Below, piece after piece: positions 2,436 to 14,370 of a stretch of 14,370 nt of DNA. The stretch is from a bacterium (GTDB lineage Bacteria > SAR324 > NAC60-12). Numbering within the stretch: the stretch's first letter is position 1; each line of letters opens with the position of its first letter. The stretch is from the NCBI GenBank assembly GCA_965233585.1, contig CBDDTI010000610.1, forward strand, positions 1-14,370. The letters are read 5' to 3'. The notes beneath the pieces were generated by a model. That model searched no databases and was not told where the DNA came from. It saw nothing but the letters and a program-made list of their open reading frames with translations. The position numbers and the translations under genes are program-made.

Positions 2436-2854
2436 TTAGTAGAATTCTACTTGACCACTACCGCAAATGCTTCAATCTGATTGGCTGAGTGATCGAGCAC
2501 TATCAGCCATTACTGTACAGAAGCTGATGGTAATCTTCAAAATAGCAATGTTTTATTCGTTTTTCGAACGTTTTGGAGGAACATTTTGACGCAGATGGAT
2601 CATTAAATTCCTAAGAAGGCTAAAAGAGGGGCATTTATGCTTTCTTGAAAAAAAAAATTATGAGCGTGCCCACACAACTGCAATTTCTAATGACAATATT
2701 CAATCCGAGCGATCTTTCTAAGGTGCGAAGTTTAATAATGCGTCCGGAAGGAAATTTCAGTTGGAATTCTACTAAAATTATTCGTTCTCCATTTCTATGA
2801 GGTGATAGCTGATTCGGCCTTTCAAAGAAATTTCAAGCTAATAATCTAATTGTT
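2436..2854 (+). mobile_element. Short-IR plus 3' hairpin element (degenerate)
   Basis: TTAGTAGAATTC (2436-2447) inverted with GAATTCTACTAA (2764-2775), followed by a decayed hairpin ending AATTGTT at 2854. Confidence 0.6.
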
Positions 2855-2859
2855 TTAAA

Positions 2860-3142
2860 TTAGTAGCCACTCAGTTGTGTTCCATTGGAAATCCCCGAAT
2901 CTATCATCGTTTCCTACTCACTGACAGACAACAATCACACGCGCGCTGCTCTTGAAACTGAAAATTACTCTTAATTTTAGGCTCAAAAATACCCGAAGTT
3001 GTAAATTTTGTCAATGTGCTGTAGCCCTTAAGAGTGGCTACTAAAACAATTAAACCACTTGCTCTCGCTTTACATGAGCGATACTGGGCTACGCCATGTT
3101 AACTATTCGCTCATAGAAAACTCGGCCTTGTAGTCTATTAGT
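2860..3142 (+). mobile_element. Short-IR plus 3' hairpin element (second, tandem to the previous one)
   Basis: TTAGTAGCCACTC (2860-2872) inverted with GAGTGGCTACTAA (3032-3044), then an AACAATTA... hairpin with central GGCTACGCC. Confidence 0.65.
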
Positions 3143-3413
3143 CCAGGAATAGTTAATTCAATAATATTATTATTAAACATCCTGGTTTAGTATGTTTTAA
3201 ATGTTCTTCGACAAGTTGCAACAAGCAACTTACTTGACCCAGTCAAAGTTACTGGGAATTCGAAAATAGTTTGTAACCATATGATGTTATATTTTACATC
3301 AAGCGTACTATGCAAACTGACGATCACGATAGTGCATAAACTTTCTTATTCTGTTTACACCAAGCTGGATAATGACAAACTGAAAAACCTGCACACTAGT
3401 TTCTGTTTCTTAC

Positions 3414-3501
3414 CTCAACTATAGGGTAAATATTCATTAGTTCAGAGATGAGCTGCCTCCGTCTGAAATTCAGCTGAGCGGTCAACTTAACGAAAGATTC
3501 T
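3414..3501 (-). CDS. UVRAG: UVRAG coding exon (88 nt): RESFVKLTAQLNFRRRQLISELMNIYPIVE
   Basis: Acceptor gtcttacag, donor gtaaga; strong match to [28 protein letters not shown]. Confidence 0.95.
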
Positions 3502-3894
3502 CTGTAAGACAACGAGAAAAGATAGTTGAGATATTCTCTCACCAATAAATTGAAGGCTTCGGTGGAAAAAGGGCGCTAGGGTTTTTACTCAAAATTGAAC
3601 TTTGTCGAAAAAGCTCCAAATTTCGCATGCAGTTTTGTTTAGGTGCGTTAAACAATGTTCTGTATGTTTTTTTGCTGACGTTTTCTACGTTTACGAGATA
3701 TTACGTATGCAAAAAAGCCTGTATTTGTGGTCACATCAGCACGTGACCGGAAAGACGGTAATTTCACTTAAAATCCAGCAAAATATTGATCTTTTGCAGC
3801 GTGTAACCTTAAAAAGTGTTGATTTTAGGGTAAAACCGTTACAATTTTGATTTCACGTTAACGTGCGACCGCAAAGACGTTAATTTCACTCAAA

Positions 3895-4002
3895 TTACCG
3901 CTCAAAACTAGGGTTAGCGCTGAAAGTTAGGGTTACGGAACAAGGTTAGGGTTAGAGTTAAGATCAGCATACGTTAGGGTTAGCGCTGTGTTAGACCACG
4001 GA
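3895..4002 (+). repeat. Telomere-like (TTAGGG-derived) module inside element A
   Basis: TAGGGTTAGCGC...GTTAGGGTTACGGAACAAGGTTAGGGTTAGAGTTAAG...GTTAGGGTTAGCGCTGTGTTAG. Confidence 0.85.
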
Positions 4003-4009
4003 CGGACTT

Positions 4010-5045
4010 TGATTTCACTTAGAAAACAGTGTAAAGTTCATTTCCCGCAGCGCCTAAGCTCAAAAACCTCGATTTCAGGTCAAAATAGGTTAGAATGTTG
4101 ATTTTACGTTAAAGCCTGACGGCAAGCCTGTTGATTTGACTTAAAAACGAACAACATCTTCATTTCACGCAGCGCATAAGCTCAAAAACCTCGATTTCAG
4201 GTCAAAATAGGTTAGAATGTTGATTTTACGTGAAGGCGTGACGGCAAGGCTGTTGATTTGACTTAAAAACGAACAAAATCTTCATTTCACGCAGCGCCTA
4301 AGCTCAAAAACCGAGATTTGAGGTCAAAATAGGTTAGAATGTTGATTTCACGTTGAAGCCTGACGGCAAGGCTGTCGATTTGACTTAAAAACGAACAACA
4401 TCTTCATTTCACGCAGCGCGTAAGCTCAAAAACCTCGATTTCAGGTCAAAATAGGTTAGAATGTTGATTTCACGTTAAGGCTTGACGGCAAGGCTGTTGA
4501 TTTGACTTAAAAACGAGCTAAATCTTCATTTCACGCAGCGCCTGAGCTCAAAAACCTCGATTTCAGGTCAAAACAGGGTAGAATGTTGATTTCACGATAA
4601 GGCCTGACGGCAAGGCTGTTGATTTGACTTCAAAACGAACAACTGAAACCTTTATTTCACGCAGCGCGTAAGCTCAAAACCCGAGATTTCAGGTCAAAAT
4701 AGGTTAGAATGTTGATTTCACGTCAAGGCCTGACGGCAACGCTGTTGATTTGACCTAAAAACGAGCAAAATCCTCATTTGACGCAGCGCCTTAGCTCAAA
4801 AACCTCGATTTCAGGTCAAAATAGGCTAGAATGTTGATTTCACGTTGAGGCCTGACGGCAAGGTTGTTGATTTGACTTAAAAACGAGAAAAATCTTCATT
4901 TCATGCAGCGCGTAAGCTAAAAACCTCGATTTCAGGTCAAAATAGGTTAGAATGTGTATTTCACTTGAACGTGTGAGAGCAAGGGTGTTGACTTCAGTTA
5001 GGAAATAACAAAATGTTGACTACCTGCAACGTATAAGCTCAAAAA
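4010..5045. repeat. Tandem satellite, 122-bp unit, about 8 copies
   Basis: Motif CAAAATAGGTTAGAATG (with minor variants) starts at 4081, 4203, 4325, 4447, 4569, 4695, 4817 and 4938. Confidence 0.95.
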
Positions 5046-5832
5046 TGTAGGGCTGACCCTTCTGTGCCGCAACATACAGGTCTCCATACATCTGCATGGC
5101 CGCTGATCCCAGAAGTTTAAAACACTGCAAATCGCGCCGATTTGAAATATAATCAACGCAACCTGGATCACAGATCTATGTTTCAATTGATCGCTTCTTG
5201 TTGGCCATTATTAGTTGAAATAAAAAAGGAAAAAACAAGCTCTGTAATTAGTTTAACTTTGTCTTGTCTTGTCTCTTGTCCTGCAGAACGTGATCGCAAT
5301 GCATACCGGGAAGGTTCTTTATTCCTCGTGCGCGGGTAGACATGGTGCTCGATACAAGACAAATTTAGCAGTTCTCGCTTTCCAAACTTTGATGCTAGCA
5401 ACGCTTGGCAAATGGGCCACAACTCACAACAGGGTTACTTTCTTGGTTAAGAACTGCTCTTGGACTTTGCTGCCTGGATCGACCTGACTTCAAACGCCGA
5501 TGACTCGCTGATATCACCGAGTTGCGTTCGAAGTAACAGAACACATTTTGCTTCTTTAAAACGTGTTGACGACTTACGGGTTTATCAAGGCTTCATGATG
5601 CCTTTCAACCACCAGGCAGGCTACAAGGTACTTAAAAACAATGCTTAAGATATTAGGCGACAGAACTGTAATGCTACACATCTCTTTTCTGTGCGAATGG
5701 TATTTGCTTTGACGCTCAATCGATCGACGTCACAATAACCTGTGCAAATAATCTGTTTCCAGTTTCCCGCCCTATCTGCATTTTTTTTAAAATGGATATC
5801 TTAATCTTTGAAAGAAGTAAAGGAACAGAACG

Positions 5833-5936
5833 AAAAAAAAAAAAAAAATTGGCCGACCTCGTATCGAACCGGTGTCACGGCAAAACAAAGTCGACCCTGG
5901 CCCGTTCAGCGCCTTATCCGCTTGCGCTAACGAAAC
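5833..5936 (-). ncRNA. tRNA-like RNA polymerase III unit (A box, B box, oligo-T terminator); not a canonical tRNA
   Basis: Minus strand GTTTCGT-TAGCGCAAGCGG-ATAAGGCGCTG...ACC-GGTTCGATAC-GAGGTCGGCCAA-T16. A box 5929-5918 begins at +8, B box 5870-5861, T-run 5848-5833. Confidence 0.55.
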
Positions 5937-6283
5937 AGTGTTGTATGATTGATGTATTATAGTGACTTCATCGTTTAGCGAAACAAATGGTTCTTTTGTT
6001 TTTCATTCAGCAAAAGATCCCTAGAGGATGCCCTCGGAAAAATGTGTTTTTTCGCATACGTAATATCTCAAAAAGGAAGCAAGCTTCAGGGAAAAAAACA
6101 TGCAGAACATTGTTCAAGACACCTAAACAAAACTGCATGCGAAATTTGGAGCGTTTTTGACAAAGTTCTGTTTGGCGTAAAATACCTAACGCCTTTTTTC
6201 CACCGAACCCTTCAATTATGCTTGCCAATCATGTATTGCTACTGAAACAAGATTTCAAATTTTGATGACTGTTGCGAATGAAA

Positions 6284-6570
6284 AAGTCTGCATACAAGCC
6301 AAGTGGCCCGGCAGGCCGGAGCTTATCCCGGTTTCCTTAGCATGAAGCGACTAGGGGTATTTCTGCTCCCCCCTAGATGGGATGATAGCCCATCGCAGGG
6401 CTACCCCAGCATTAAGTTCACCAGCACTCATTTATACACCTGGGTGGGGAGAGGCACTGTGTGAGTAAAGTGTCTTGCCCAAGAACACAACAAAATGTTC
6501 CACCCAGGGCTCGAACCCAAACCGTGTGATTTGGAGACAGGCGCACTAACCATGAGGCCAACATGCCTCC
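6284..6570 (-). mobile_element. tRNA-derived SINE
   Basis: A box TGGCCTCATGG (6560-6550), B box GGTTCGAGCCC (6517-6507), CORE-like body TTCTTGGGCAAGACACTTTAC...GTGTATAAATG and 3' body CCCTGCGATGG...GGGATAAGCTCCGG. Confidence 0.9.
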
Positions 6571-6595
6571 AAAGGGTTGATCTAAATCCCCGTAC

Positions 6596-6680
6596 CTTTT
6601 CTCTACATGTGCTTGCTTGTGTTCCCGCAAAGATGCCCTGTTGGAATCGAGTTGTGCTCTGTTTCTTCTAAGGTTTACTT
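6596..6680 (-). CDS. UVRAG: UVRAG coding exon (85 nt): EVNLRRNRAQLDSNRASLREHKQAHVEK
   Basis: Acceptor cccacag, donor gtacgg; phase 1 to 2; resembles vertebrate KESLNELRKECTAKR. Confidence 0.87.
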
Positions 6681-7389: not shown

Positions 7390-7548
7390 CTGTGATATGG
7401 AGAAAAAGAGAGTCAGAACATTACAATTTAATTAATGAGTCGCTAACTTAGCCAAAAGACAATAAGGAAGCTAGTGAAAGCTTGATTTCAAAATGAGAAG
7501 ATATGCTCATAAATAAACATTTTTGCATCCGTAAGAATATCAACAATT

Positions 7549-7892
7549 GAATGGCTTGGTGCAAGAGGGACGTAAGTGACTTTTTCAGGTGAAATTTTTT
7601 TTCCTTCAAAAGTGCCTGAATTTTTGCATGTGCTTTTCAATTAAGTAGTACAACATTCCCCTGTATTTTTTTGCCTGGTTTGCACTTTGTTTCTGAGAAA
7701 AACAAAGACAAAATATTGAAGTGTGCACAATGAACACAACAAAGCAGAACTAGAGCATTTCAGTCAGAAAAACGACACAGGAGAATGTTTTTCTACTTAA
7801 TTGAAAAGCACATGCAAAAATTCAGGCACTTTTGAAGGAAAAAAAATTTCACCTGAAAAAGTCACTTACGTCCCTCTTGCACCAAGCCATTC
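7549..7892. mobile_element. 344-bp MITE, copy 1 (100-bp perfect TIRs, GAATGG...CCATTC)
   Basis: 7549-7648 is the reverse complement of 7793-7892; identical by eye to 11101-11444. Confidence 0.92.
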
Positions 7893-8731
7893 AATAGGCC
7901 TAACAAGGCCTTTGAGGCCAGGCCTGAAGGCGCTTTGAGGCCTGGCCTCCTCAAAGGCCTTAAGGCCTTAATATGAAAGGCCGCGGGCAAGAACGTCCCC
8001 TAGATTTTTCGCTAAAATCGAATGGCCAAACCAGCTCCAAACTTCACATGCCAATTTGTTTATACGTGTAGAAAACTGCCTTGCGCTTATTTCCTCCCGT
8101 CTCTGTTGCGTATTCCAGAAATAAAGTATGCAAAAACACTCTTTGAGGCCAGCCAGGCCTGAAGGCGCGAGTAACAAAAGGATTTTTGTTTATCTTCGTG
8201 CTTTGTAAGTGAATTGCCGTTTTTACGGGCTGGGACCGATAGGTTTTTTAGCTGGCATTGTGACGGCATTGTGACGTAGGCATTTGGCGCGCAAAGCAGT
8301 AGCACAAATTCAGAGCTTACCTGTTAATGAAGGAAATTGAAGTTTGCTCGTTATTTCCACCGATATTCAACGCTTATTCGAGGAATATTTGCGCCCGCCT
8401 GGTAGGAGATTTGGCATCATTAAGCCTTTGATCCTCGATGAGTCACCAGCATGCCTCAAAGAACCGAGGTGTGTTCTTGTTCTGAGATCATGGTTTAAGT
8501 CTGCCGTTAACTTAGCCATTGAAGAACAAGTGAGCCAGGCGGTAGAGTTTAGAAACACTTCTTGTTGCAAAACAAAGCATTCGTCGTGGACTTACGGCTG
8601 ATTTGCCAAACTCCGGCGTGTGTCAGTTTTGGAAATTAGAAGTGCTTTCTAGACTCTATTATTTTCTTGAAATTGGCTGCCGTCCACCACCCTCGCTCGA
8701 AAAATATCTGGGATATCCCATAATAATCTTT

Positions 8732-8758
8732 CATACATACATACATACATACATACAT
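8732..8758. repeat. (CATA)n microsatellite
   Basis: catacatacatacatacatacatacat. Confidence 0.95.
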
Positions 8759-9259
8759 CGTCGTGACCGTTGTGTGCATGACTTATAGCGCGTCCTAGCG
8801 TGACTCAGACACGGCCGGGATCTGGTGAGAAAGGGCAGGCAGCAAAGCCGTTGAATTTGACCTGTGTTTAGGTTAAAAGCTAATGCTTAAATTAAAGGAA
8901 TTCCAAGCCATTTTTACGAAATCGCAGGTCGGTTAAATTGGCAAGCAAGCGTTCCGTGAGTGTGTATCGTGGATTTCCAAGCAGATGATTACTTTGAATT
9001 GTGATAAGATCGAGCCCGCCACGAAGAAAAAAGACAAAGAACGTCTGATCGCAGGTTAGGAAGAAAACTTCAGCCGAAATGTAAGTTTTTGCTTTGTATT
9101 TTAGCGTTCCTTTGCTGACAAATTTTTCGTTTCATGCGCTTTTTTTCGGTATGAGCAGCGTGTTAGCTTAAGGCTTCCTCATTCTGTGTCGTCAGAAATA
9201 ATCATTTCATGGAACGAGCAGTTTGGTGACCAAAAAATCATTTAACGCAGAAACATTTA

Positions 9260-10042
9260 CAGTGCGTTTCACAAAACTTTTGACAAACGGTTTCCAAAGT
9301 TCGCTACGAAATCGGCAATTTCATTACATAGTTGTCAATTTTCACGCTGAATTTCGTTGGGAAGTTGCGAAGTTCGCGCCATTCGGTGTAGCTAGTTTGA
9401 TAATATGACTACTCAAATGAATTTAAACAAAGTGAAAAAAATCTTCAACCAAGCAATGCTTATTTTATGATGTTTAGTTTTGAAAATGTAAATTATTTGA
9501 GAAGTACAGAAGGACTCCACATCACAGACGGATGGCGCGACTAGCATTTTGTTTACAATAAAAAGGTAAATACAAAAGTTCAACAATACGACATTAAAAT
9601 GTTCTGGTTTTTTTTGACGCTATTCCTAGAAGGATGTATGTCCTGAAAAAGGGGTTTCATCTCTGATAGATTTAAATGTAAAGTACTTTTAAACCGCTAT
9701 GCGTGGAAGTTCTATCTGAAGCTACCCGAGAATAAACTAACGCGACAGAAATTGTATTCTATTTTTAGGTGGGTGTCGGATGACATCTGGGAAAATTCAG
9801 TTGCAAGGTGTTATAGCTCATTTTAAAACTAGTAATCCCTAATCGACGTGACCACAACGTATAAGGAAATTCCGAGACAATTTCTCTCGCAATGAACTTG
9901 ATAACTTCCCAACGAAGTTCGGCGTGAAATTCACGTTCACGATTTGATTGACAACTACGGAACCAAATCGCTAAGTTCGTAGCGAACTTCAGGAATTTCA
10001 AACCAACTTCGGAGACCGTCAAACGTTTTGTGAAACGCACTG
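9260..10042. mobile_element. Tc1/mariner-type MITE nested in element B
   Basis: TA-CAGTGCGTTTCACAAAAC at 9258 and GTTTTGTGAAACGCACTG-TA ending at 10044; gapped inverted similarity continues ~120-150 bp inward. Confidence 0.75.
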
Positions 10043-10162
10043 TAAATCACTGACGTAACCGATTTGCAAAACGTTCAACCTCTCTCTCTCTCTCTAGGCA
10101 CTACTCATTGACTTGATTTAGGCATCGATTCGTGCGAGAGATTTCAAAAGTCGAAATTGCTT

Positions 10163-10690
10163 TCCTTGGCCTAACACAGCGCTAACCCTAACGTATCCTG
10201 ACCTTAACTCTAAACCTAATCCCAAGCGCTAACCCTAACACTAAGCGTTAGCGCTGACCCTAACACTAAGCGCTAGCGCTAACCCTAACACTAAGCGCTA
10301 GCGCTAACCCTAAGCACTAAGCGCTAACCCTAACACTAAGCGTTAGTGCTGACCCTAACACTAAGCGCTAGCGCTAACTCTAACACTAAACGTTAGCGCT
10401 GACCCTAACACTAAGCACTAGCGCTAACCCTAACACTAAGCGCTAACCCTAACACTAAGCGCTAGCGCTAACTCTAACACTAAACGTTAGCGCTAACCCT
10501 AACACTAAGCACTAGCGCTAACCCTAACACTAAGTGTTAGCGCTGACCCTAAGCAATGACCTAAACCCTGAGCGCTAGCCCCAACCCCAAGCAATAACCC
10601 TAACCCCGAGCACTAGCCCTAACCCTAACCTTGTTCCGTAACCCTAATCTTCGACGCTAACCCTTGTTTCGAGCGGTAACCCTAACCCTA
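10163..10690 (-). repeat. Telomere-like module with an expanded ~25-nt minisatellite (TAACCC TAACAC TAAGCGC TAGCGC)n in element B
   Basis: Reiterated gcgctaaccctaacactaagcgcta at about 10226-10555; the flanks match the module at 3895-4002 in reverse complement. Confidence 0.9.
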
Positions 10691-11100
10691 GCTCTAATAA
10701 AACTGGGAACTCTTAACCCTAAGGGTTTAAGTGATCATTTGAAAAAAATTACAAGAAAAACAACGCTAATAGTCACTGTATTGGAAAACAAAAGGCCGTT
10801 TTCTTTCATTGTGTAACAGAGCAGCTCCAAAAGAGACCGACCGTGACATGCAAGTGTTTTTGCATACTTTATTTCTGAAATACACAACAGAAACGGGGGG
10901 AAATAAGTGCAAGGCAGTTTTCTACACATATAAACAAATTGGCATGCGAAGTTTGGAGCTGTTTTGGCCATTCGATTTTAGCGAAAAATCTAGGGGACGT
11001 TCTTGCCCGCGGCCTTTCATATTAAGGCCTTAAGGCCTTTGAGGAGGCCAGGCCTCAAAGCGCCTTCAGGCCTGGCCTCAAAGGCCTTGTTAGGCCTATT

Positions 11101-11444
11101 GAATGGCTTGGTGCAAGAGGGACGTAAGTGACTTTTTCAGGTGAAATTTTTTTTCCTTCAAAAGTGCCTGAATTTTTGCATGTGCTTTTCAATTAAGTAG
11201 TACAACATTCCCCTGTATTTTTTTGCCTGGTTTGCACTTTGTTTCTGAGAAAAACAAAGACAAAATATTGAAGTGTGCACAATGAACACAACAAAGCAGA
11301 ACTAGAGCATTTCAGTCAGAAAAACGACACAGGAGAATGTTTTTCTACTTAATTGAAAAGCACATGCAAAAATTCAGGCACTTTTGAAGGAAAAAAAATT
11401 TCACCTGAAAAAGTCACTTACGTCCCTCTTGCACCAAGCCATTC
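11101..11444. mobile_element. 344-bp MITE, copy 2 (direct repeat of copy 1)
   Basis: 11101-11200 is the reverse complement of 11345-11444; the asymmetric core reads in the same direction as in copy 1. Confidence 0.92.
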
Positions 11445-11486
11445 AATTATTGAATTTGTTTCTAAACTACATAATATAGCACTCAC

Positions 11487-11592: not shown

Positions 11593-12097
11593 CTGTTAGA
11601 GAAAGACAAACTCAGCTTTAAATTACCTGTCGGTAGTAGGGACAAAATACACTGTTGTACAAATGTAAGTAGTAATGCCAGTGTAAATTTAACAACTGAT
11701 TGAGGTTTAACTGTGCATCATCAAGTTATGATGCCCATGGAAAGTTTGAAGGGCACACTTGAGAAGTTGCTGGAAACACAGAAAATACAGCACTATAGGA
11801 ATAAAATGTAAAACAATACTGTAAATTTCTACTATTTTGAGTTTTCAACCCCATCAAGGTTGTGGGTAGACTTTATTCAATACCCCCCTGGATGAACCAC
11901 TGGCACCTTTGCTGCCTGCTCAGCTGCTTCAGGACCTTCAAACAGTCCCTTTGTGGCCTATTAAGAACCTAACCTCTGGCTTTGCTTTCTTAGCTATTCT
12001 ACCCTATTACACGTACTATTCAACAAATTGTAACACTATCCAAATATGGTCATGATGCTCTCGATATCTGTCATCCGTAGGTAACAGATATCCGGTA

Positions 12098-12735
<638 letters not shown>

Positions 12736-13700
12736 ATATATACGTAGCTTCGTATGTGGGAAGAAAAAGTGAAGTGAAAAAATGTCGACAGAAGGATTAA
12801 AAAATGTTACGAGTTTTGTTATCAATTTGTTGAATAATAAAACAATTATTCTGCTCAATCTCGCGTAATATCGTCTGATTTTAGCCGACGAGGCCGTACT
12901 AAGTATCAGATGATATTCCGCACGATTTCGCAGGATAATTGTTAATTAGACTCAGGAGGTTGACTAGTGGCAAGTCTGGTACATGTACATGTATGTGACG
13001 TGTACAGCATTGAAGAGTGATAACCTCTCACAAAAAACCCTTCTGGTAACCTACTGTACCTTTGAACAGAAGATAATTTACATGATGTATGAACCTAAAA
13101 ATAAAATAAACAGAGAATGATATAATTAAATACTCTCCTGTAGTTACATGTACATGTTCCTAGAACAGTTTTATTAGTTTAAATTGTTTATCTTGGTTCT
13201 CACATAGAATGAATTAAGATCATTATTTGTATTTTTTGTTGATGTTGCTGTTGGTGATTTAAGGTTACCCTAAACCTTTGCAGGTGTCCTCCGGAAAAAA
13301 AGAATTGTGTGTGTTACAAAAAATAAAAAATACAAAGAATTAATTAAATTAAAATTAAAAGGAATTGTGTGTAAAACAGCATACTATGCTGTTTTCAAGT
13401 AAACCGTCACAAACTACATATCAATAGAAAGGTTGTGAAATGAAGAATTCGGTAAAATTAAACTCTGTTTTGCCAATGCTTTCCTTTGGCAGAAAAAGCT
13501 GTTAACAACAAAATGACCAACTGAAATTCTGGATAATTGGGTATCAAATGCGATTGTTGATGCAAAATAACTCTGCAGTGTTAATCACAAGGCATCACTC
13601 TCTAAAAGGGTGTCAGCATGTTCTTTTATTTGTATTGATTATCTTTTTTACAGATCTGTCAAGTGCCACAATCAAAAAATTTATATAATTTTCTTTCAGT

Positions 13701-14207
13701 GCCTTTATTGCTCTTCCCAGTAGGCCGCAACACCCATGAATTTTTTTGCTGCCTTCAGAGTGACGTTTTTGATGCTGCGGGTTCGTTTTAAACCAAACAC
13801 ATGGTACATTTGAAAGTATAGTTTTCTTGCGTTGTGTCATAACTTTTTCATGTTCATTTGCAACATGTTCATCTTCATAAGGAAAGCTTATGGTGGTTTT
13901 TGTCTGCCATAAAACTGTCAGCATGACTGCTGCTTATCAACTGAAGATAAAATATGATCAGGACAAATTTGGAGTTGTTTTTTTTTAGATGTAAAATGCC
14001 CAGTAAGCTTTCCTCTTGAAGATAAACATGTTGTGAATGAACATCACATAGTACGAAAAAGTCACGACGTCACACAGAAAAAATGTCCTCACATGGTGCA
14101 TTTCAAATGTACCATGTGATTTGTAACTTTCGGCATCAAAAACGTTACTCTCAAGGCGGCAAAAAAATATGTGGGTGTTGTGGCCTGCTGGGAAGAGTAA
14201 TAAGAGC
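13701..14207. mobile_element. Decayed foldback/MITE with ~190-bp inverted arms
   Basis: CTCTTCCCAGTAGGCCGCAACACCC...GTTTTTGATGC versus GCATCAAAAAC...GGGTGTTGTGGCCTGCTGGGAAGAG; ACATGGTACATTTGAAA versus TTTCAAATGTACCATGT; arms about 13701-13890 and 14004-14207. Confidence 0.75.
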
Positions 14208-14370
14208 AGCAACAAGGAAGATTACAGATTAGAGAGGAAGAGGCTTACATGTACATTGTACTGGTACATCAAAATTGTTGGCAAAGAATGATCTGGACTA
14301 GACAAGGTTTGACAAAATGTGGTGATTCAGACTGAAACAGGACAAGTATTTGAACCTCACTTTTCAGCTG

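What the first reader, a model, noticed from the sequence alone, without database searches (positions are those of the whole stretch)
7549..11444. 3.9-kb composite element with identical palindromic end-caps in flip/flop (direct) orientation
Seen: AATT-[344-bp MITE]-[78-bp linker]-ATAT-[element B]-ATAT-[linker reverse complement]-[344-bp MITE]-AATT. The two MITEs are identical by eye and their asymmetric 144-bp cores run in the SAME direction, while everything just inside them is a perfect INVERTED repeat (7793-8030 vs 10963-11200, 238 bp). Neither MITE has its own matching 4-bp flanks (AATT/AATA and TATT/AATT); only the outer ends match, so the unit seems to have moved as one piece. Independent insertions would not land at mirror-identical positions, and a plain long TIR would invert the cores. 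Inference: (a) an IS-style composite transposon in an animal whose caps could also recombine like LTRs to leave a solo MITE, or (b) one end was copied to the other through a hairpin intermediate, giving flip/flop isomers like parvoviral (AAV) termini. Caveat: AATT is self-complementary, so a TSD cannot be told from TIR extension here.
Basis: partly seen in the sequence, partly recalled or inferred. Interest (0 to 1): 0.85.

Follow-up and report, generated by a model that had tools for sequence, protein, structure and literature searches.

The report
Nested coral transposon with direct caps
In coral DNA, three unrelated small jumping genes lie one inside another, and the whole 3.9-kb stack sits at two unrelated sites, so it likely jumps as one piece by its outer ends; its odd same-direction caps most likely come from ordinary nested insertion, not from virus-like hairpin flipping.

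Summary
The unit is repeated. A second copy, 99.7% identical, with the same core orientation and different flanks, lies on contig C152. Read depth suggests tens of young copies.

The geometry is most likely nesting:
- The cap is a free-standing MITE family with a true 4-bp AWWT duplication (Sola1-like).
- The linker ends (AGGCC…GGCCT, AT-flanked) match a transposon class in this genome that duplicates AT.
- Removing that layer restores cap-AATT-cap, the junction of a head-to-tail double insertion.
- B is a complete Sola1-like element in the linker's central ATAT.

So reading (a), a composite moved by its outer ends, is supported, and hairpin flip/flop (b) is not needed.

One oddity remains: both caps carry a derived C in this copy and T in C152, an LTR-like co-change seen at one site only. 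Conversion between direct repeats is the likely cause. No transposase or free dimer was found. The scan noted other transposon pairs moving as one block in this genome (other families, untested here). Verdict: new variant of a known kind.

The parts
7545..7548 (.). Left target-site duplication, AATT
   Evidence: family flank statistics
7549..7892 (+). Left cap M: 344-bp Sola1-like MITE, 100-bp perfect arms, 144-bp core
   Evidence: solo copies with their own 4-bp flanks in other coral contigs
7776..7776 (+). Derived C at cap position 228 (T in both C152 caps and in most solo copies)
7893..7895 (.). AAT: left part of the inferred cap-cap AATT, with one copy of the duplicated AT
   Evidence: removing 7896-11097 plus one AT restores a cap-AATT-cap junction; inference
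7896..7970 (+). Left half of the middle layer ('linker'): 75-bp, AGGCC-terminal, internally palindromic; inferred half of an AT-duplicating (ISL2EU-like) mini-element
7971..7974 (.). ATAT, left flank of B (AWWT)
7975..11018 (+). Element B: 3044-bp non-coding Sola1-like element; TIRs 7975-8140 and 10853-11018
   Evidence: 84 B-type ends in other coral contigs; left interior 8230-8672 matched by 4 of 19 and right interior by 2 of 35 such ends
8141..8170 (+). 24-30-bp copy of linker sequence just inside B's left TIR (old; also in C37); likely templated filler
9255..10047 (.). Separate TIR element nested in B
   Evidence: I24; copies on C722, C130, C692; joints skipping 9225/9258-10043 in reads
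10170..10690 (+). 19/25-bp TAACCC-rich tandem array, part of the B family interior
11019..11022 (.). ATAT, right flank of B
11023..11097 (-). Right half of the middle layer, exact reverse complement of 7896-7970
11098..11100 (.). ATT: second AT copy plus the last T of the inferred cap-cap AATT
   Evidence: inference
11101..11444 (+). Right cap M, identical to the left cap and in the same orientation; C at 11328
11445..11448 (.). Right target-site duplication, AATT
7390..11486 (-). Host intron (197 nt when empty) between two in-frame exons of a minus-strand gene, probably UVRAG-like
   Evidence: ATG14 family hit E=0.0011, below cut-off, on a downstream exon at 1196-1435; the name UVRAG is recalled

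Best explanation
This is a non-coding nest of three coral DNA transposons, present at two unrelated loci, that likely moves as one composite when a Sola1-type transposase supplied in trans cuts at the two outermost MITE ends. Inferred order: (1) The Sola1-like element B inserted at the central ATAT of a small AGGCC-ended element, duplicating ATAT; this older two-layer unit exists without a cap (C37). (2) A second copy of the MITE M inserted into the AATT duplication of a first copy, giving a head-to-tail dimer M-AATT-M. (3) The two-layer unit inserted into that middle AATT, duplicating AT, which puts M in direct orientation on both sides at mirror-identical junctions. (4) The outer M ends mobilised the whole stack to tens of AATT sites. 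(5) The two caps stay identical through conversion or unequal exchange between direct repeats 3.2 kb apart. Shown: anatomy, second locus, free-standing M and B families, AWWT and AT duplications of the respective classes. Inferred: order of steps, the dimer, the transposase, the conversion.
For: Second copy C152:2488-6629 with unrelated flanks, identical inner junctions, 7 substitutions in 3202 bp of inner part. Exact inner contigs at depth 1042 (X18) and 1165/1297 (X20) against 19-22 for the flanks (rough, not a copy count). M and B occur independently in other coral contigs: 41 M ends and 84 B ends in 120 loci, none with the linker. Position -4 of the flank, which the search pattern left free, is A in 35 of 37 distinct M ends and 66 of 68 B ends. 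Non-palindromic direct flanks occur at L080 and L077. AWWT is called a Sola1 hallmark in PMC3845634 (passages). In G000, 9 of 64 terminal AGGCC..GGCCT TIR pairs have AT on both sides against 0.39 expected, and 6 of 15 AT-flanked elements have paralogous empty sites with one AT. Removing the middle layer the same way restores cap-AATT-cap, the double-insertion signature of PMC5932611 (passages). C37 holds an 88% copy of linker+B with no cap at its left end. X20's right-flank contig begins with 31 letters unlike the cap, as an empty allele would (letters not seen). Intra-element conversion between direct repeats is common in plant LTR elements (PMC5751070, passages).
Against: No free M-AATT-M dimer in 747 contigs or 120 loci. 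No free linker-ATAT-linker element. No transposase with these ends: none of 7 DUF7869 or 10 DDE_Tnp_4 loci checked had them. The linker shares only its terminal AGGCC and AAT/ATT flanks with the AT class. C37's left end lacks the first 9-10 nt, so its terminus cannot be confirmed, and its right end is missing. C152 lacks the last 4 nt and the TSD at its right end. The C/C versus T/T co-change needs an extra conversion event within about 0.1% divergence per lineage. The outer 135 bp of the inner arms share derived variants against C37, C423, L028 and L063, so inverted end-to-end copying did occur in this lineage and could have carried a cap along.
Confidence: 0.66

Rival explanations
1. One-cap origin with end copying and a flip. 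The inner unit landed beside a single MITE. That end (cap + linker + 58 bp of B) was copied in inverted orientation to the other end by template switching, and one core was flipped across its 100-bp arms.
For: The inner arms are identical over 135 bp, including derived variants (3-nt duplication near 7946, two G>A changes, a 2-nt loss near 8022), and then differ at 9 sites in the next 110 bp. This fits one recent inverted copying tract that ends inside B. TIR extension and conversion are described for Galileo (PMC3573991, passages). The cap folds as a long hairpin. No free dimer was found.
Against: It needs one more event (the flip) than the dimer route. Both full copies have the same isomer. 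7 of 7 contigs of one solo-MITE site keep the orientation (older copies with imperfect arms). The shared C lies in the core and was copied in direct, not inverted, sense. There is no Rep-like or other ORF.
Confidence: 0.17
2. Replicative cap reset. Both caps are rebuilt from one template at each move, as LTRs are, or as in a cointegrate or circle integrating at a solo MITE. The unit would then be an LTR-like or IS26-like pseudo-compound element rather than plain cut-and-paste.
For: The only cap difference between the two copies is the same base in both caps (C/C here, T/T in C152), with no cap-private change where 1.5 are expected (P(0)=0.22). Two independent hits at one site have a chance of about 0.001-0.003. 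T is ancestral: 31 of 35 informative loci have T, 2 have C, 2 have a gap.
Against: It rests on one site in two copies. The termini are GAA..TTC with AWWT duplication, not TG..CA. There is no RT, integrase or recombinase ORF and no Rfam match above gathering score. The inner junctions hold no direct 4-bp duplication, which a cointegrate would leave. Conversion explains the same pattern.
Confidence: 0.1
3. Assembly or consensus artefact: the repeats were collapsed or polished together, giving the direct cores or the shared C.
For: No single read spanning the unit was seen. The laid contigs show only T at 11328 in four runs, though such contigs drop rare variants.
Against: Two contigs with different flanks, private substitutions and a private 242-nt insertion share the layout. 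Flanks match run X18 with 0 differences over 868 and 620 bp, and both junctions are crossed. Polishing towards the majority would give T, not C.
Confidence: 0.05

Closest known systems
Sola1 non-autonomous elements / MITEs (PMC3845634, passages; the original description was not held)
   Same: TIRs starting with G, 4-bp AWWT duplication, MITEs of about 340 bp; applies to cap M and to B.
   Different: No transposase linked here; two MITEs act together as the ends of a 3.9-kb unit.
Tandem dimers of DNA transposons by double insertion (P element, hobo; PMC5932611, passages) and tandem coral CMITE arrays (PMC2872659, passages)
   Same: Head-to-tail copies separated by one TSD, which is what is restored when the middle layer is removed.
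   Different: Here the dimer junction was then used as a target by another element, and the dimer ends appear to carry that cargo.
Macrotransposons / composite insertions of maize Ac/Ds (PMC4270019, abstract and section 6; bioRxiv 10.1101/2020.08.10.245175, passages) and bacterial composite or MITE-flanked transposons (search listing only; details recalled)
   Same: The outer ends of two elements bound intervening DNA that can move as one unit.
   Different: The cargo is other transposons, not host or resistance genes; the caps are non-coding; the unit seems amplified to tens of copies in an animal.
ISL2EU-type elements, 2-bp AT duplication (PMC4122938, passages)
   Same: The middle layer has AT on both sides, and its class restores a single AT at empty sites.
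   Different: No ISL2EU transposase was tied to these ends. AT is self-complementary, so blunt insertion between A and T (Spy-like) fits equally.
Foldback-type long-TIR elements such as Galileo (PMC3573991, passages)
   Same: Modular, partly homogenised long inverted arms.
   Different: The outermost modules are direct, not inverted, and each module is a separate family with its own target signature.
AAV/parvovirus flip/flop termini (recalled; one search found no paper tying them to a transposon)
   Same: Palindromic ends with an asymmetric centre.
   Different: One isomer in both copies, a 4-bp target duplication, no Rep or capsid coding.

Membership tests
Sola1 | 4-bp target duplication at AWWT | tested here: met
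   AATT/AATT here; AWWT in 34 of 37 distinct M flanks and 66 of 68 B flanks (last two bases fixed by the query); AAAT..AAAT and ATTT..ATTT at two solo copies
Sola1 | Terminal inverted repeats | tested here: met
   100-bp arms in M, 166-bp arms in B
Sola1 | Sola-type transposase, or an autonomous partner with the same ends | tested here: inconclusive
   No ORF in the unit; the 7 DUF7869 loci in G000 have other ends (the DUF7869-Sola link is recalled); only about 12 Mb of sequence is held
Composite transposon / macrotransposon | Two complete elements bound the cargo, with a TSD only at the outer ends | tested here: met
Composite transposon / macrotransposon | The unit occurs at more than one site | tested here: met
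   C152, different flanks, same junctions; its right end is clipped by 4 nt
Composite transposon / macrotransposon | Empty site with a single TSD copy | tested here: inconclusive
   The X20 right-flank contig starts with 31 letters unlike the cap, and its left-flank contig stops at 7540; the letters were not seen
Composite transposon / macrotransposon | Mobilisation as a unit shown in an assay | not testable with these tools
   needs a transposase and an excision assay
ISL2EU (middle layer) | 2-bp AT duplication | tested here: met
   AT on both sides; 6 of 15 same-class elements with single-AT empty sites; blunt A|T insertion is not excluded
ISL2EU (middle layer) | THAP-DDE transposase plus YqaJ gene in an autonomous partner with these ends | tested here: inconclusive
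   10 DDE_Tnp_4 loci checked, none bounded by AGGCC/AT ends; THAP and YqaJ not searched
LTR retroelement (TRIM/LARD-like) | Direct repeats with TG..CA termini and the TSD outside them | tested here: not met
   Solo copies fix the termini as GAA..TTC with AWWT outside; a TG..CA reading leaves no matching flanks (sequence)
LTR retroelement (TRIM/LARD-like) | Terminal repeats identical within a copy, different between copies | tested here: inconclusive
   Seen at one site in two copies
Parvoviral/AAV-type termini | Flip and flop isomers at each end | tested here: not met
   2 of 2 full copies have the same isomer; 7 of 7 solo alleles unflipped; small sample
Parvoviral/AAV-type termini | Rep/NS1 gene or helper dependence | tested here: not met
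   No ORF or Pfam match in the unit; junction and linker patterns absent from viral contigs

The most novel reading that the evidence does not exclude
An animal DNA transposon whose two direct, palindromic MITE caps are rebuilt from a single template each time it moves. That would be an LTR-like or IS26-like copy-in route run by a cut-and-paste superfamily, and it would make tens of young copies with cap pairs identical within, but different between, elements.
Probability: 0.1. Interest if true: 0.8.

Novelty: new variant of a known kind. Interest (0 to 1): 0.36.

Why it matters
If the best reading holds, it is a clean example of how a eukaryotic composite transposon is born without any special mechanism. 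A site-specific MITE inserts into its own target duplication, the junction is a ready target for another element, and the dimer's outer ends then carry kilobases of cargo to tens of sites. The direct caps give it LTR-like behaviour (conversion, possible collapse to a solo MITE) although it is a DNA transposon. Structure-based annotation could therefore call it an LTR element or date it wrongly. With about 50 near-identical copies it is a ready natural data set for measuring conversion between short direct repeats and for testing which of its six Sola-type ends pair in transposition. It carries no host gene, so its functional weight is small.

Tried and rejected
Chance or single-locus accident: rejected, second copy.

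LTR retroelement: the termini and TSD do not fit.

Ribozyme or structured-RNA element: 9 Rfam matches, all miRNA hairpin models below gathering score.

Coding capacity: three stop-to-stop frames inside the unit gave no Pfam match above cut-off, and six-frame translation of 8140-10200 shows many stops.

My interim idea that B's left arm is only a copy of its right end was dropped after one search showed B-family left interior at 8230-8672.

Search for an autonomous partner: the C650 relative (3.2 kb, normal inverted TIRs, AATT flanks) has no long ORF; the DUF7869 and DDE_Tnp_4 loci have other ends.

Linker or junction patterns found nothing in viral contigs or genome contigs. The empty allele was not read directly, so insertion polymorphism stays a hint. 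Laid contigs are too short to phase a core across a 100-bp arm.

Literature: no paper describing this layout turned up; one search found nothing. The library lacks most subscription papers and Repbase, so the component families may already be catalogued. No supplements were read.
Full report
Observation. The direct repeat 7546-7895 = 11098-11447 is exact over 350 bp, the cap has 100-bp perfect arms, and 7793-8030 / 10963-11200 is an exact 238-bp inverted repeat. The inverted repeat is the cap's own arm, 3 bases, and the outer 135 bp of 245-bp inverted arms that bound the inner part 7896-11097; the next 110 bp of those arms differ at 9 sites. The unit lies in a minus-strand intron, 7390-11486, which would be 197 nt when empty. 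A downstream exon has a weak ATG14-family hit (E=0.0011, below cut-off). The host is a coral by the records of the runs and contigs that hold the sequence. The file G000 holds 12 Mb in 747 contigs, far less than a coral genome (size recalled).

It is a repeated unit. Contig C152 holds a second copy at 2488-6629 with unrelated flanks, the same inner junctions and the same core orientation. It differs by 7 substitutions in the 3202-bp inner part, one microsatellite unit, a 242-nt insertion and loss of the last 4 nt; its left flank is AATT. Four of the 21 runs were laid on the window. Exact inner contigs had depth 1042 (X18) and 1165 and 1297 (X20) against 19-22 for flanks, a rough sign of tens of young copies; X19's flank depth was uneven. 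X18 crosses both junctions with no differences, and X19 crosses the right one. In X20 the right-flank contig starts with 31 letters unlike the cap and the left-flank contig stops at 7540. This hints at an empty allele, but the letters were not seen.

The layers are separate families. One metagenome scan with a pattern fitting both termini returned 120 loci, stopping at its limit. They held 41 cap ends and 84 B ends, none joined to the linker. The pattern fixed the last two flank bases; the free position -4 was A in 35 of 37 distinct cap ends and 66 of 68 B ends. Two solo caps have non-palindromic direct flanks, AAAT..AAAT and ATTT..ATTT, so the 4-bp flank is a true duplication. AWWT is named as the Sola1 hallmark in PMC3845634 (passages; the original paper was not held). 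B is a whole element: 4 of 19 B-type ends with enough sequence continue into 8230-8672, and 2 of 35 continue like the right interior. B itself carries a nested TIR element at 9255-10047.

The middle layer explains the geometry. The inner part begins AGGCC and ends GGCCT, with AAT before and ATT after. A scan of G000 found 126 TIR pairs with these termini. I set aside 62 that lie inside longer inverted repeats, including the rows from this element. Of the other 64, 9 have AT on both sides (0.39 expected), 7 have a TNA triplet and 48 have no match. With slightly looser settings, 6 of 15 AT-flanked elements have paralogous empty sites with a single AT. PMC4122938 (passages) gives a 2-bp AT duplication for ISL2EU; since AT is self-complementary, blunt insertion between A and T fits too. 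Taking out 7896-11097 and one AT restores CCATTC-AATT-GAATGG, that is, cap-TSD-cap. This is the junction that double insertion leaves in DNA-transposon dimers (PMC5932611, passages); tandem MITE arrays are also reported from corals (PMC2872659, passages). C37 has an 88% copy of linker plus B with no cap at its left end, so B inside the linker is likely the older unit. Against this reading: no free dimer in 747 contigs or 120 loci, no free linker element, an eroded terminus in C37, and only a pentamer plus flanks tying the linker to the AT class.

Mechanism. Most likely (0.66), B inserted in the linker element's central ATAT. That unit inserted in the AATT of a head-to-tail MITE dimer, and a Sola1-type transposase acting in trans then moved the stack by the outer MITE ends. 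The anatomy, the second locus and the target signatures are shown. The order, the dimer and the enzyme are inferred. No partner transposase was found: none of 7 DUF7869 or 10 DDE_Tnp_4 loci checked had these ends, and the 3.2-kb relative on C650 is non-coding.

The residual oddity. T is ancestral: 31 of 35 informative loci have T, 2 have C and 2 have a gap, several being alleles of one site. No cap-private change exists where 1.5 are expected (P=0.22), and two independent hits at one site have a chance near 0.001-0.003. Conversion or unequal exchange between direct repeats is the plain explanation; PMC5751070 (passages) reports conversion signs in about a quarter of angiosperm LTR pairs. A replicative reset of both caps is the bold reading (0.10), resting on one site. 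The C could not be confirmed in reads: the four runs show only T at 11328, but such contigs drop rare variants.

Flip/flop. The outer 135 bp of the inner arms share derived variants against C37, C423, L028 and L063, so inverted end-to-end copying has happened, as described for Galileo (PMC3573991, passages). A one-cap origin with copying plus a flip therefore stays possible (0.17). It needs an extra event, both copies show one isomer, and 7 of 7 contigs of one solo-cap site keep their orientation. The shared C was also copied in direct sense. Nothing points to a parvoviral system: no ORF or Pfam match, no viral contig with the junction, and no Rfam family above threshold.

Comparison and verdict. 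It works like a composite or macrotransposon (maize Ac/Ds: PMC4270019, abstract and section 6; bioRxiv 10.1101/2020.08.10.245175, passages). Its parts meet the TSD and TIR tests for Sola1 and the AT test for ISL2EU, with the transposase tests open. It fails the terminal test for LTR elements and the isomer test for AAV-type ends. My searches found no paper on this layout, within a library that lacks Repbase and most subscription journals. Earlier notes of this scan report other transposon pairs moving as a block in the same genome (not tested here, and not this family). New variant of a known kind; interest 0.36.

Noticed in passing
window 3551-6213: Another Sola1-like element (GAA-type ends, about 125-bp TIRs, AATT flanks) with a 122-bp tandem array at 4037-4964 and TAACCC-rich repeats related to B; same minus-strand gene region.
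   Followed up: partly
G000 C152:4998-5239: 242-nt insertion inside the second copy, ending in a (GTT)n tail, with 97% and 81% relatives on C303 and C148; looks like a short retroelement fragment.
   Followed up: partly
G000 C37:1268-2123: About 860-bp element with long inverted arms and 8-bp-like flanks inserted in the older uncapped copy.
   Followed up: no
G000 C76, C160, C298, C393, C447, C511, C619, C149, C126: Several small TIR families with AGGCC..GGCCT ends and AT flanks, mostly in AATT, with clean paralogous empty sites; candidate ISL2EU-type MITEs of coral.
   Followed up: partly
G000 C443:9868-10492: Older cap-family copy (94.5%) clipped at one end and duplicated in tandem together with about 130 bp of flank.
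   Followed up: no
G000 C650:4690-7870; C515:1945-2642; C564:846-1780: Longer relatives of the cap and B families with normal inverted TIRs and AATT flanks; ends and interiors appear shuffled between families.
   Followed up: partly
window 12020-12960 and 13700-14210: Very high-depth repeats and several short hairpin elements to the right of the unit.
   Followed up: no
run X1 at window 7946, 11023, 11090: In another coral sample the linker lacks the 3-nt duplication and 2 nt near its end, making it a cleaner palindrome, at depth about 2500 against 5-19 for flanks; whether it is capped there is unknown.
   Followed up: no
G000 C532, C639, C647, C621, C372: DUF7869-coding elements with 16-27-bp TIRs of two kinds; possible autonomous elements of other families.
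   Followed up: partly
G000 C745-C747, C295: Four large contigs (0.26-1.07 Mb, 40% GC) stand apart from the short coral contigs and are probably a bacterial genome in the same bin.
   Followed up: no
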